Part shown: positions 49,301 to 52,300 of the stretch, piece after piece
Numbering within the stretch: the stretch's first letter is position 1
Layout of the letters: each line of letters opens with the position of its first letter
Assembly: GCF_030384885.1 (NCBI RefSeq)
Contig: NZ_CP128613.1
Length of the DNA: 64,000 nucleotides
Source of the DNA: Escherichia coli
Lineage (GTDB): Bacteria > Pseudomonadota > Gammaproteobacteria > Enterobacterales > Enterobacteriaceae
Reading direction: 5' to 3' (one strand)
Program-made: the position numbers

Positions 49301-52300
49301 GACGCTTTTGCCGCGCTGACACCGCTGTTCTCATGCATGGCTGATGGCTATTATCTGCTCGAAGATCGTGAAATTTACCCGACGGATGGCAACGGGCATT
49401 TCTTTTGGGCGGCAACGGACCATAGCGCCAGTAATCCGGCGACCGTTGCCGTCTGGGATCCTGAATATTGCTATTTCAGTGACACCGCCCCCTGTTTTCT
49501 TCTACCCGGCCAGCCGCCATCACATTTTAATCCTGAGCGTGCGACGTTTTATCGCGATAAACCGGACGCCCGCGCTCTGGCCTGGTATCTCCCTGATTCC
49601 TATCTCTGCGTTCTGCTCGACGGGCACCATAAGGCCACTGCTGCCGCACTGGAAGGGCGACCGCTCAAAACACTGGTACTCAGCACGGCAACCCGTTTTA
49701 ATGATGAGCAACAAACACTGGTATTTCCGGGCGGAGAATGTCTGCACAAAACAGAGCTACTGTGCCACGTTCCCAAACTCACTGAGTGGAAAACATTACC
49801 GCCCGGCGCATGGGAGAGTTTCGGCCCTGATAAGCACATCAGCCCATCCGAAACCTGGTCTGAAGAGTTGCAGCAGAGCGTCAGTCGGTACCCTTCACTG
49901 GATCAAGCCTGGCAAATTGTTGAGGCCGGGAATTTGAGCGAAACTCGTATTAAGAGCATGATCCAACAAGGTTTGGGGGAGGATGAAAAGGCTGATGTAA
50001 TTTTGCAGGCACTGTTTTCCACACACTCGCCGCTTTTTATTGACTTTGCCCGATTCGTTATCAGCTATCCGGCATACGCCAGTTATCGCCCCCTCACCTT
50101 CCGGTTGATGGCGCAAAACCGAACGCCGCAAGCAGATGCTTTTTTTCTGGATTTTGCCATCAATGATGACGGCGAACGTCCGGAGTTGACGAAAATAATG
50201 GACGACTATTTTCGCAAGCGTTAATCACCCCGCCCGATGATGACAGCAGCCGGAGAGATTTTCGATAATCGGGCAGTCGGCGCTGTCATCACCGGGGCAG
50301 GCATTCGCCAGCGCCAGTAACTGGTTGCGCATGGATTGCAGCTCCTCAATGTGTCGTTCGATCTCCGCCACCTTCTCCAACGTGCGCCGTTTGACGTCGG
50401 CGCTATGCCGCTGCGGGTCGTTAAACAGATTCACCAGTTCGCCGCTCTCTTCCAGGTTAAAGCCCACCTGACGCGCCTGGCGCAGTAAGGTCAGTTCGTT
50501 GAGATGCTGCTGCGTGTAGGTTCGATAACCGTTTTCGCTGCGCATCGGCGGCGTCACCAGCCCCTTTTCTTCATAGAAGCGAATGGCTTTGCTGGTCAGG
50601 CCGGTAATTTTTGCTACATCGCTAATGTTCATCGTTCGCGCAACGCCTCCTGTGCTTTGTTAAAGGGTTTCAACAGATAATCCAGCACGCTTTTTTTGCC
50701 GGTGCGGATATCGACCGTCGCCACCATGCCGGGAAATATCGGAAACTGCTGTTTATGTTTATTTTCCAGATGGTTGCTGAAAGTGCGAATGTACACCCGA
50801 TAGTAATAAACATCGCGCCGCACTTCATCCTGCACGGTGTCCGGTGAAATCACCGCCACTTCCCCTGGCAGGCCGCCGTAGATGGAATAATCGTAAGCGG
50901 TTATTTTCACCAGCGATTTTTGCCCCGGATGGATAAACGCCACATCGCGGGGGGAGATTTTTGCCTCGATCAGCAGTTGCTCATCCAGCGGCACGATGGT
51001 CATCAGTTTACCACCGGGGGCGATGACGCCGCCAACCGTGGTGACGTCAATGTCCTGAACAATGCCTCGCACCGGCGCAGTAAAGTTGAGCCGCGTGAGA
51101 GAATCTTCCCGCCCGCGGATCACCGAACGCTGGGTTTCCACTTCCGCATTGGCTTTCGCTAACTCTTCGCGCGCCTGAACGTAGTATTGCGTGCGCACGT
51201 CGCTAAGTTTGTTTTCCAGTTCATTGGCCTGACGTTGCAGGCGCAGCACTTCGACGCTGCTCGCCGCCCCCTGTTTTACCAGCGGCTGGGTCATCGCCAG
51301 TTCGCGGTTGACCAGGCTAATCCCCTGCGTCAGCCCGGTGGTGGCTTTGTTCAGCCCATCGCGGCGAGTGTTATATAACGCCGTTTCCGACTCGATAAGT
51401 TCGGGGAATTTATTCAGTTCGTCAGGGAAGACCAGCGGTTTATTGCTCACTTCCGCCCGCAGCCGCGCCGAGGTTGCCAGCGCCGCGTACAGCCGCGACA
51501 TCGCTTCCTGGACGTCGGATTCCGTTTTGGTGCGGTTAAGCTGTGCCAGCGGCTGCCCCTGTTCGACAATATCGCCAACCTTCACGTCGAGATGATACAA
51601 AATCCCGCCTTCCAGAGACTGCACCACCTGTTCGCGTCCAGAAGGTTCTACCGTGCCGCTGCCGGTGGTGACTTCATCAAGCTGGAAGTACCACGCCCAG
51701 CCGAGAAAACAGAGCAGCATCACAGCGGTAACGCGCACCGCCAGCGCCGAACGTGGCAGGCGGGGTTCAGTCAGGCCACGGTTGTATTGCAGTTGTCCGT
51801 TCATGCGGCAGACCCCTTATTCTTCTCCTGCAACACCACGCGTCGCGTCGTGGGTTCGCCCTGTTCACGCAAAATGGTCTCTTTCGCGCCGTCCATCACA
51901 ATGCGCCCCTGATCCATCACAATTATCCTGTCCACCAGTTGCAGCATTGCCGTGCGGTGAGTAGCGATGACCAGCGTGCGATGGCCAATCCACTGTTTTA
52001 GTTGTTCAATTAAATACGCTTCCGCCATTTCATCCAGCGAGGCACTGGGTTCATCGAGCAGCACGATATTGGGTTGAGAGATGAGGAGCCGCGCCAGCAG
52101 CAGCGTTTGTCGCTGACCACCAGAGAGGCCAAATCCCCCTTCCTGAATCATGTAGTTGAGGCCGTTTTTCTGCTTCTGCACAAAGGGCAGCGCCCCGCTG
52201 AGGGTTAATGCGCGTTCGATATCTTCATCGCTGGCTTCTGGCATCCCCATGGTGAGGTTTTCCCGCAGCGAACCGAAGAACAGTCGCCCGGTCTGGCTGA

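What the first reader, a model, noticed from the sequence alone, without database searches (positions are those of the whole stretch)
50225..50640. cueR start codon overlaps the stop of the upstream adaptor gene (ATGA)
Seen in sequence: on the minus strand the adaptor gene's TGA (50631-50629) overlaps the cueR ATG (50632-50630). The nearest SD-like sequence for cueR (GGAGG) is 13 nt upstream, inside the adaptor coding sequence. Either cueR is co-transcribed or translationally coupled with the secretion operon, or its own promoter is embedded in the adaptor gene's 3' end. Both would differ from the K-12 arrangement and might tie copper-efflux regulation to adhesin-operon expression.
Basis: seen in the sequence. 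Interest (0 to 1): 0.5.

Follow-up and report, generated by a model that had tools for sequence, protein, structure and literature searches.

The report
cueR overlaps relic-prone secretion adaptor gene
The copper-sensor gene cueR does start four bases before the end of a secretion-system gene, but this junction is the old state of the genus Escherichia (E. coli K-12 keeps a 95-base remnant of it), and published start-site maps show cueR has its own weak promoter inside the upstream gene, so the overlap is ordinary.

Summary
On the minus strand the HlyD-type adaptor gene (51804..50629) ends in a TGA that overlaps the cueR ATG (ATGA, 50632-50629), and GGAGG lies 13 nt upstream.

The gene cluster is O-island 28 of EHEC.
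- 959 of 5426 complete E. coli genomes have the intact junction.
- The rest, K-12 included, keep a frameshifted relic of about 95 bp of the adaptor 3' end. The relic still has GGAGG and ATGA, so K-12 is a deletion derivative.
- In other Enterobacteriaceae cueR is divergent from copA. The Escherichia insertion cut about 10 nt before the cueR start, removing its original Shine-Dalgarno sequence and promoter.

Published Cappable-seq in O157:H7 EDL933, which is identical to the window across the promoter region, places a cueR start site 160 nt upstream, inside the adaptor gene, in all eight conditions. This maps to window 50792, with a TACTAT -10 element. K-12 instead starts at -86, -39 and -21 inside its relic.

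EDL933 RNA-seq falls about 100-fold along the cluster and rises again at cueR.

So cueR has an embedded promoter. Read-through and translational coupling are neither required nor excluded. This is an ordinary arrangement with a neat case of promoter turnover.

The parts
50225..50632 (-). cueR, Cu(I)-responsive MerR-family regulator, 135 aa
   Evidence: ORF. NCBIfam NF007590 scores 308 bits (cutoff 244) and TIGR02044 206.6 bits (cutoff 147.4). The product is 100% identical to CueR of EDL933 and 2013C-4282.
50629..51804 (-). HlyD-family type I secretion adaptor (hlyD28 / Z0635 of O-island 28), 391 aa
   Evidence: ORF. TIGR01843 scores 328 bits (cutoff 208.65) and is matched to its last position. 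It aligns end-to-end with the HlyD C-terminus. Named in PMC12758282.
50629..50632 (-). ATGA: the adaptor stop codon overlapping the cueR start codon
   Evidence: The same sequence is present in K-12 and in all 10 Escherichia loci examined.
50633..50653 (-). cueR translation-initiation region: 21 nt (ACAGGAGGCGTTGCGCGAACG) containing GGAGG (50650-50646)
   Evidence: It is 21/21 identical in the E. albertii relic, where the adaptor gene is gone. In the same comparison the next 41 nt differ at 14 positions and cueR third codon positions differ at 40/135. The anti-SD duplex is -10.3 kcal/mol. The region is less structured than shuffled sequence (z +1.4 to +1.8).
50633..50727 (-). The part of the adaptor 3' end that survives as a frameshifted relic upstream of cueR in K-12-type genomes; the deletion boundary is at ~50724-50727
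   Evidence: Alignments. BLAST coverage limits at 274/277 and 374/377. Translation of the K-12 intergenic region. PGAP pseudogene fragments.
50792..50792 (-). Inferred cueR transcription start (A), 160 nt upstream of the ATG
   Evidence: Start site 604687 in EDL933, found in all 8 conditions with RRS 4.2-9.0. Mapped through the identical alignment.
50800..50805 (-). Putative -10 element TACTAT, 7 nt upstream of the start site
   Evidence: Read from the sequence. This is inference; the simple consensus scan did not call it.
50823..50828 (-). Putative weak -35 element ATGAAG (3 of 6), with a 17-nt spacer
   Evidence: Read from the sequence. Inference only.
51801..53963 (-). Type I secretion ABC permease/ATPase (hlyB28 / Z0634); it overlaps the adaptor start by ATGA
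   Evidence: TIGR03375 scores 835 bits (cutoff 693).
53967..64000 (-). C-terminal ~3,340 codons of the giant repeat adhesin (siiEA / rtxB28); the gene runs off the window
   Evidence: PGAP labels it 'BapA-related adhesin SiiEA, frameshifted' in the identical strain.
49001..50224 (+). Convergent 407-aa ORF whose stop codon abuts the cueR stop with no intergenic base
   Evidence: No NCBIfam family. Present in other Escherichia species.

Best explanation
The ATGA overlap is the ancestral Escherichia junction between the last gene of the O-island-28 type I secretion and giant-adhesin cluster (tolC28-rtxA/B28-hlyB28-hlyD28) and cueR.

How it arose (inferred from comparative sequence). In other Enterobacteriaceae cueR is transcribed divergently from copA. 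The CueR box lies 10-35 nt upstream of the cueR start, and a canonical Shine-Dalgarno sequence (AAGGGGGAA) lies 4-6 nt from it. In the Escherichia ancestor a block (glsA-ybaT plus the secretion cluster) came to lie between copA and cueR. Its right end sits within ~10 nt of the cueR start codon. cueR was therefore stripped of its own promoter and ribosome-binding site and now uses the 3' end of the adaptor gene for both.

Transcription (shown experimentally in EDL933, inferred for this window by sequence identity). cueR starts from a weak, constitutive promoter inside the adaptor gene, 160 nt upstream of the ATG (window 50792, -10 TACTAT).

Translation (inferred). It uses the 21-nt GGAGG-to-ATG segment, which is unstructured and under purifying selection. 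K-12-type strains have no translatable upstream gene and still make CueR from the same sequence, so the stop/start overlap is not needed.

K-12-type strains. They deleted the cluster and kept a ~95-bp relic. They transcribe cueR from new start sites at -86 (the -10 element TATTAT sits at the deletion junction), -39 and -21.

Read-through from the RstA-controlled tolC28 promoter, followed by termination-reinitiation at ATGA, may add a minor contribution.
For: - Junction and relic. PGAP annotates the relic as a frameshifted pseudogene fragment overlapping cueR by 4 nt.
- Census: 959 of 5426 genomes have the intact junction. The K-12-type 70-mer is exact in 3800 genomes, 95-99% identical in 660 and 90-95% identical in 743. 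All sampled members of the last group carry an intact HlyD gene.
- Genus-wide distribution: intact in E. whittamii and Escherichia sp. E1V33; frameshifted in SCPM-O-B-8794; the same 95-nt relic in Escherichia sp. MOD1-EC7003; a shorter ~60-nt relic in E. albertii.
- Ancestral divergent pair: copA(-) and cueR(+) lie ~108 bp apart in about 50 non-Escherichia species. On the copA side, Escherichia homology ends right after GGTCAAG, ~10 nt before the ancestral cueR start.
- Start sites: EDL933 at 604687 in 8 of 8 conditions (method). K-12 at -115, -86 (RRS 49), -39 (RRS 100) and -21; RegulonDB lists -19.
- EDL933 RNA-seq, mean RPKM over 11 conditions: tolC28 133, rtxA28 30, rtxB28 0.8, hlyB28 1.5, hlyD28 3.2, cueR 8.8.
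- Constraint on the initiation region: 21/21 nt conserved in the E. albertii relic.
- No CueR box near cueR.
Against: - The -160 start site is weak. RRS is 4.2-9.0 against a threshold of 1.5, and its signal-to-noise against the gene background is low in several conditions.
- Its -35 element is poor, and the consensus scan did not call the promoter.
- The start site was measured in EDL933, not in this strain.
- No terminator is predicted between the adaptor gene and cueR.
- cueR RPKM correlates with hlyD28 RPKM (Spearman 0.78, n=11, low counts). Part of the cueR mRNA could therefore be read-through.
- RRS values from the two studies are only roughly comparable.
- The order of events (one insertion ending at the stop codon, or an insertion followed by trimming) cannot be reconstructed.
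Confidence: 0.78

Rival explanations
1. cueR is mainly the fifth or sixth cistron of the secretion operon. It is transcribed from the RstA/Ca2+-controlled tolC28 promoter and translated by termination-reinitiation at ATGA, so CueR level follows adhesin expression.
For: - Tight packing: a 3-nt gap, then ATGA, then ATGA.
- No terminator is predicted before cueR.
- The Shine-Dalgarno sequence is 13 nt from the ATG, which is suboptimal.
- All five OI-28 genes fall 3- to 5-fold in a ΔrstA mutant (PMC12758282).
- cueR RPKM correlates with hlyD28 RPKM.
Against: - A reproducible primary start site 160 nt upstream of cueR is seen in 8 of 8 conditions, and none is assigned to hlyB28 or hlyD28.
- RNA-seq falls ~100-fold from tolC28 to rtxB28/hlyB28 and then rises at cueR. 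At 15 °C tolC28 is at 418 RPKM and cueR at 2; in minimal medium tolC28 is at 58 and cueR at 27.
- The adhesin gene is a pseudogene in this strain and in EDL933. From general knowledge, this favours Rho-dependent polarity.
- K-12-type strains express cueR from the same proximal sequence with no upstream translated gene.
Confidence: 0.12
2. The K-12 arrangement (ybaT-cueR) is ancestral, and the secretion island is a recent horizontal insertion that happened to land next to cueR.
For: The cluster is catalogued as an O-island absent from K-12 (PMC12758282). Only 18% of complete E. coli genomes carry it intact.
Against: - K-12 carries the last ~32 codons of the adaptor gene with a 1-bp deletion. 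The translated relic reads VVAVDIRTGKK / [19 protein letters not shown].
- The intact junction is also found in E. whittamii and Escherichia sp. E1V33.
- An independently bounded ~60-nt relic is found in E. albertii.
- An insertion would not leave the 3' end of the inserted gene in genomes that lack it.
Confidence: 0.03
3. The cueR start codon is misannotated, so the overlap is an annotation artefact.
For: None was found. This was considered only because the Shine-Dalgarno spacing is long.
Against: The NCBIfam equivalog NF007590 aligns residues 1-135 to model positions 1-135. The N-terminus MNISDVAK is conserved from the first residue in 80 species, with the start at the same position.
Confidence: 0.01

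Closest known systems
O-island 28 (OI-28) of EHEC O157:H7: tolC28-rtxA28-rtxB28-hlyB28-hlyD28 (Z0608-Z0635), PMC12758282
   Same: It is the same gene cluster at the same chromosomal place. The adaptor is 99.7% identical to EDL933 hlyD28, and the cueR junction is identical.
   Different: That paper does not mention cueR, which is Z0636, the next gene. In this strain the neighbouring segment on the other side of cueR carries a 407-aa ORF that EDL933 lacks.
MerR-type divergent pair (regulator gene transcribed divergently from its target promoter), here copA<->cueR in Salmonella, Citrobacter, Enterobacter and Klebsiella
   Same: cueR is the same ortholog (82-91% identity), and the CueR box stays next to copA.
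   Different: In Escherichia the pair is split by at least 2.5 kb (K-12) or ~28 kb (this strain). cueR has lost its native promoter and Shine-Dalgarno sequence and has an ATG in place of the common GTG start.
Promoters for a downstream gene embedded in the coding region of the upstream gene (for example the main rpoS promoter inside nlpD; general knowledge)
   Same: A primary start site for cueR lies inside the 3' part of the preceding ORF, giving a 160-nt leader made of coding sequence.
   Different: The promoter is weak and apparently constitutive. Its function has been mapped only by genome-wide Cappable-seq, not by dedicated genetics.
Translationally coupled ATGA/TGATG gene pairs in operons (for example the trp operon junctions; general knowledge)
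   Same: The stop/start geometry is the same 4-nt overlap, and the same geometry occurs at the ABC/adaptor junction.
   Different: Coupling is not required here. The same start region works in K-12-type genomes, where the upstream frame is a frameshifted, untranslated relic.

Membership tests
CueR (Cu(I)-responsive MerR-family regulator) | Full-length match to the curated equivalog models above their cutoffs | tested here: met
   NF007590 scores 308 bits (cutoff 244), covering residues 1-135 of 135. TIGR02044 scores 206.6 bits (cutoff 147.4).
CueR (Cu(I)-responsive MerR-family regulator) | Orthologous position next to ybbJ-qmcA, and to copA in relatives | tested here: met
   ybbJ-qmcA lie downstream in K-12 and in about 50 other species. 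copA is divergent upstream outside Escherichia.
CueR (Cu(I)-responsive MerR-family regulator) | Cu(I)-dependent activation of copA and cueO | not testable with these tools
   The protein is 100% identical to EDL933 CueR and 99.3% identical to K-12 CueR. Function is inferred from that.
HlyD-family type I secretion adaptor | Match to TIGR01843 above its cutoff, including the C-terminal ...LRER end | tested here: met
   328 bits (cutoff 208.65), matched to model position 422/422. It aligns to the last residue of HlyD 8dck_C.
HlyD-family type I secretion adaptor | Genetic linkage to a type I secretion ABC transporter, a TolC-like protein and a substrate | tested here: met
   The ABC gene (TIGR03375, 835 bits) and the giant adhesin lie upstream in the window. 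The tolC-like gene is seen in EDL933 but lies outside the window.
Translationally coupled overlapping gene pair | Stop of the upstream ORF overlaps or abuts the start of the downstream ORF | tested here: met
   ATGA at 50632-50629.
Translationally coupled overlapping gene pair | Downstream translation depends on translation of the upstream ORF | not testable with these tools
   Indirect evidence argues against dependence. K-12-type genomes lack a translatable upstream ORF yet have strong cueR start sites and functional CueR (general knowledge).
Single operon with the secretion genes | No independent promoter; mRNA level tracks the upstream genes | tested here: not met
   An independent start site at -160 is seen in 8 of 8 conditions. 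Mean cueR RPKM is above hlyD28, hlyB28 and rtxB28. Both datasets are published and from EDL933, not from this strain.

The most novel reading that the evidence does not exclude
Two linked ideas remain open.

(1) In OI-28-bearing strains, read-through from the RstA/Ca2+-activated tolC28 promoter, followed by termination-reinitiation at ATGA, raises CueR when the adhesin system is induced. This would link copper homeostasis to early adherence.

(2) The promoter turnover sets different CueR levels in the two allele classes of E. coli. The promoter at -160 is weak (RRS 4-9) in island-bearing strains. Those at -86 and -39 are strong (RRS 49 and 100) in relic-bearing strains, where they were created at the deletion junction and by the relic substitutions TCCGCA>TTCGCA, delG and TGGATT>TTGAAT.

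As a practical corollary, ΔOI-28 or ΔhlyD28 mutants remove cueR's promoter and may be partly cueR-deficient.
Probability: 0.15. Interest if true: 0.5.

Novelty: new member of a known kind. Interest (0 to 1): 0.3.

Why it matters
The overlap is ordinary operon-style packing and does not reveal a new mechanism. Three things are still useful.

1. **Where K-12 cueR promoters sit.** The well-studied K-12 cueR gene has no intergenic promoter of its own kind. Its start sites lie in the fossil of a secretion gene. About 18% of E. coli, including O157:H7, use a different and apparently weaker promoter inside the intact gene. That is a clean natural example of promoter and ribosome-binding-site replacement after a rearrangement.

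2. **A caution for mutant studies.** Deleting O-island 28 or hlyD28 also deletes the mapped cueR promoter. Any copper-related or pleiotropic phenotype of such mutants needs a cueR control.

Tried and rejected
- **Consensus promoter scan of 49900-52000**. It found nothing on the cueR strand, and likewise in K-12. The scan is too strict for the weak promoters that Cappable-seq detects, so its silence was not taken as evidence.
- **Terminator scan**. The only minus-strand hit (51734-51717) lies in the 5' part of the adaptor gene. There is none between the adaptor gene and cueR, or within 325 nt downstream of cueR.
- **RNA structure around the start**. No significant structure was found; z-scores are positive. 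A 4-bp hairpin in the SD-ATG spacer, which could shorten the effective spacing, has ΔG of -2.6 kcal/mol and an ensemble frequency of 0.13. This idea was rejected as unsupported.
- **CueR-box search for autoregulation**. Four weak matches were found, none near cueR, and the count is no more than expected by chance.
- **In-frame starts downstream of the -160 start site** that could make a coupling leader peptide. ATG 50727 has no Shine-Dalgarno sequence, and TTG 50643 lies only 2 nt after GGAGG. Neither is convincing.
- **Literature searches.** 'cueR promoter' found 0 papers. cueR with type I secretion and adhesin found nothing relevant. The SMRT-Cappable-seq supplements do not list cueR.
- **The adhesin frameshift** noted by PGAP is not inside the window. 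The ORF is open from 53967 to the window edge.
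Full report
**1. The observation**

On the minus strand the sequence reads ...AAAGCACAGGAGGCGTTGCGCGAACGATGAACATTAGC....
- A 391-aa ORF (51804..50629) ends with TGA at 50631-50629.
- A 135-aa ORF (50632..50225) starts with ATG at 50632-50630.
- GGAGG is at 50650-50646, 13 nt before the ATG.

The downstream protein is CueR: NF007590 scores 308 bits against a cutoff of 244, over residues 1-135. The upstream protein is a HlyD-family type I secretion adaptor: TIGR01843 scores 328 bits against 208.65. Further upstream lie a type I secretion ABC protein (51801..53963), which is also joined to the adaptor gene by ATGA, and the C-terminal ~3,340 codons of a giant repeat adhesin.

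The window is identical to E. coli 2013C-4282, where PGAP annotates the same overlap.

**2. Is the overlap special?**

No, for three reasons.
- Four-base overlaps are frequent. Five of about 19 co-directional neighbour pairs in the annotated 41 kb have one.
- All cueR orthologs in the 85 loci held (80 species genomes plus five E. coli records) begin A/G/T-TGAA-T/C (Met-Asn). The TGA in the +1 frame therefore belongs to cueR itself.
- The adaptor still ends at its native family terminus. ...[20 protein letters not shown] aligns to the very last residues of HlyD (8dck_C, 478/478) and to the last position of TIGR01843. The two genes truly abut; the adaptor ORF has not run on into cueR.

**3. Comparison with K-12 and a census**

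In K-12 the ybaT-cueR spacer is 124 bp. Its proximal ~95 bp align with the adaptor 3' end, including the same GGAGG and ATGA. There is a 1-bp deletion in the A-run, and the two reading frames together spell VVAVDIRTGKK / [19 protein letters not shown]. PGAP annotates this relic as a frameshifted, N-terminally missing pseudogene that overlaps cueR by 4 nt.

Of 5426 complete E. coli genomes, 5424 match the cueR region. 959 have the intact adaptor-cueR junction, and the rest stop matching at window ~50724-50727.

A 70-nt K-12-type relic probe is exact in 3800 genomes, 95-99% identical in 660 and 90-95% identical in 743. Every sampled member of the last group has an intact HlyD gene. There are therefore two haplotypes.

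K-12 is a deletion derivative. Its arrangement is not different in the last 95 bp.

**4. Beyond E. coli**

A CueR-based scan of one genome per species, followed by tblastn of the neighbouring genes, gave the following.
- The adaptor is intact next to cueR in E. whittamii and Escherichia sp. E1V33.
- It is frameshifted in SCPM-O-B-8794.
- It is reduced to the same 95-nt relic in Escherichia sp. MOD1-EC7003.
- It is reduced to a different, ~60-nt relic in E. albertii.
- Outside Escherichia there is no adaptor. Instead copA(-) and cueR(+) are divergent and ~108 bp apart.

In those other genera the sequence just upstream of cueR is ...ACCTTCCAGCAAGGGGAAGGTCAAGGGGGAAAT(G/A)TG. This is the CueR box and copA -35 element followed by a canonical Shine-Dalgarno sequence. 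In Escherichia the homology on the copA side ends right after GGTCAAG. The rearrangement therefore cut within ~10 nt of the cueR start codon and removed cueR's own Shine-Dalgarno sequence and promoter region.

I infer that cueR then had to be expressed from signals in the adaptor gene's 3' end.

**5. Transcription: published experimental data**

The cluster is O-island 28 of EHEC O157:H7 (tolC28, rtxA28, rtxB28, hlyB28, hlyD28). It is activated by RstA and Ca2+ at the tolC28 promoter. That paper does not mention cueR (PMC12758282).

*Cappable-seq of EDL933* (PMC10469882). The threshold was RRS >= 1.5 in three replicates.
- One gene-associated start site is listed for cueR (EDL933_RS02800, 604847..605254), at 604687, in all eight conditions.
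- This is 160 nt upstream of the ATG, at position 1012 of the 1176-nt adaptor gene.
- Mean RRS is 4.2-9.0.
- No start site is listed at -39 or -86.
- No gene-associated start site is listed for the adhesin, ABC or adaptor genes. tolC28 has one at 579751.

The window is identical to EDL933 from 50840 to 50762. The start site therefore maps to A at window 50792, preceded by TACTAT (50805-50800, 7-nt discriminator) and a poor -35 element, ATGAAG.

*K-12.* RegulonDB lists a start site at -19. Cappable-seq (PMC4782308) lists start sites at:
- -115 (RRS 3.7);
- -86 (RRS 49);
- -39 (RRS 100);
- -21 (RRS 2.0).

These were placed after a coordinate conversion checked. The -86 site lies 6 nt downstream of TATTAT, which sits at the deletion junction. 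The -39 site lies just downstream of the relic-specific substitutions (TGGATT>TTGAAT, delG, TCCGCA>TTCGCA). The two allele classes therefore use different promoters.

*RNA-seq of EDL933 under 11 conditions* (PMC4048457). Mean RPKM values are tolC28 133, rtxA28 30, rtxB28 0.8, hlyB28 1.5, hlyD28 3.2 and cueR 8.8. cueR does not follow tolC28: at 15 °C the values are 418 and 2, and in minimal medium 58 and 27.

These data fit an independent cueR promoter. They leave room for a small read-through share: no terminator is predicted, and cueR correlates with hlyD28 (rho 0.78) on low counts.

**6. Translation**

- GGAGG pairs well with the anti-SD (-10.3 kcal/mol). However, a 13-nt spacing is longer than the usual optimum (general knowledge).
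- The start region is less structured than shuffled controls.
- The 21 nt from ACAGGAGG to the ATG are identical in the E. albertii relic. There the next 41 nt differ at 14 positions and cueR third codon positions differ at 40/135. At a neutral rate of about 0.3, the chance of 21 unchanged positions is about 6e-4. The segment is therefore constrained as cueR's initiation region even where no adaptor gene exists.
- The same segment serves K-12, where the upstream frame is broken, so coupling is not required. Coupling on read-through transcripts remains possible and untested.

**7. Verdict**

The overlap is real but ordinary. The claim of a difference from K-12 is right for the promoter and wrong for the overlap and the Shine-Dalgarno sequence.

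The added value is evolutionary: cueR was torn from the copA divergent promoter region, the relic survives in K-12, and the promoter has turned over. There is also a practical point: OI-28 or hlyD28 deletions remove the mapped cueR promoter.

Noticed in passing
window 49001-50224 (+), and 46400-50224 as a whole: cueR is also flanked downstream by a variable segment. A 407-aa ORF with no NCBIfam family ends flush against the cueR stop (TGA then TTA, zero intergenic bases). It is followed by a small ORF, a lipoprotein and a YadA-family adhesin (47229-48245). K-12 has ybbJ flush at the same point, and EDL933 lacks the 407-aa ORF. The ORF is present at 78-93% identity in E. whittamii, E. albertii and other Escherichia species.
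   Followed up: partly
L001 3381-3480 (K-12 copA upstream region) compared with L012, L011, L044 and L046: The ancestral copA-cueR divergent control region survives next to copA in Escherichia up to GGTCAAG. Whatever drove cueR ancestrally now points towards glsA-ybaT.
   Followed up: partly
L001 5895-5993 (K-12 relic upstream of cueR): The K-12 Cappable-seq start sites at -86 and -39 are 5-20 times stronger by RRS than the EDL933 site at -160. The -10-like TATTAT sits exactly at the deletion junction. This suggests lineage-specific CueR levels, although RRS values from the two studies are only roughly comparable.
   Followed up: partly
K-12 ybaT, U00096.2 position 512537 (outside the window): A published intragenic sigma-54 binding site (CTGGCACTGGTTTTGCT) lies in ybaT, 679 bp upstream of cueR in K-12 (PMC4591121). 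In this strain it would be separated from cueR by the whole island.
   Followed up: no
window 50240-50269 (+): The best sigma-70-like match in the region (ATGACA-18-GATAAT, 10 of 12) lies antisense inside the 3' end of cueR and is conserved in K-12. The EDL933 data list no start site there, but they do list an antisense start site 99 nt beyond the cueR stop (605353).
   Followed up: partly
window 53967-64000 (-) and beyond: PGAP marks the giant adhesin gene as a pseudogene in both strains: frameshifted in 2013C-4282 and carrying an internal stop in EDL933. The OI-28 paper treats the two parts as rtxA28 and rtxB28. EDL933 RNA-seq drops from 30 to 0.8 RPKM between the two parts.
   Followed up: no
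window ~37666-37749 (L002 33252-33335): PGAP annotates a dinQ-like type I toxin between ybbP and mnmH in the identical strain.
   Followed up: no
Two plasmid records in the E. coli collection also match the cueR region. They were not examined.
   Followed up: no
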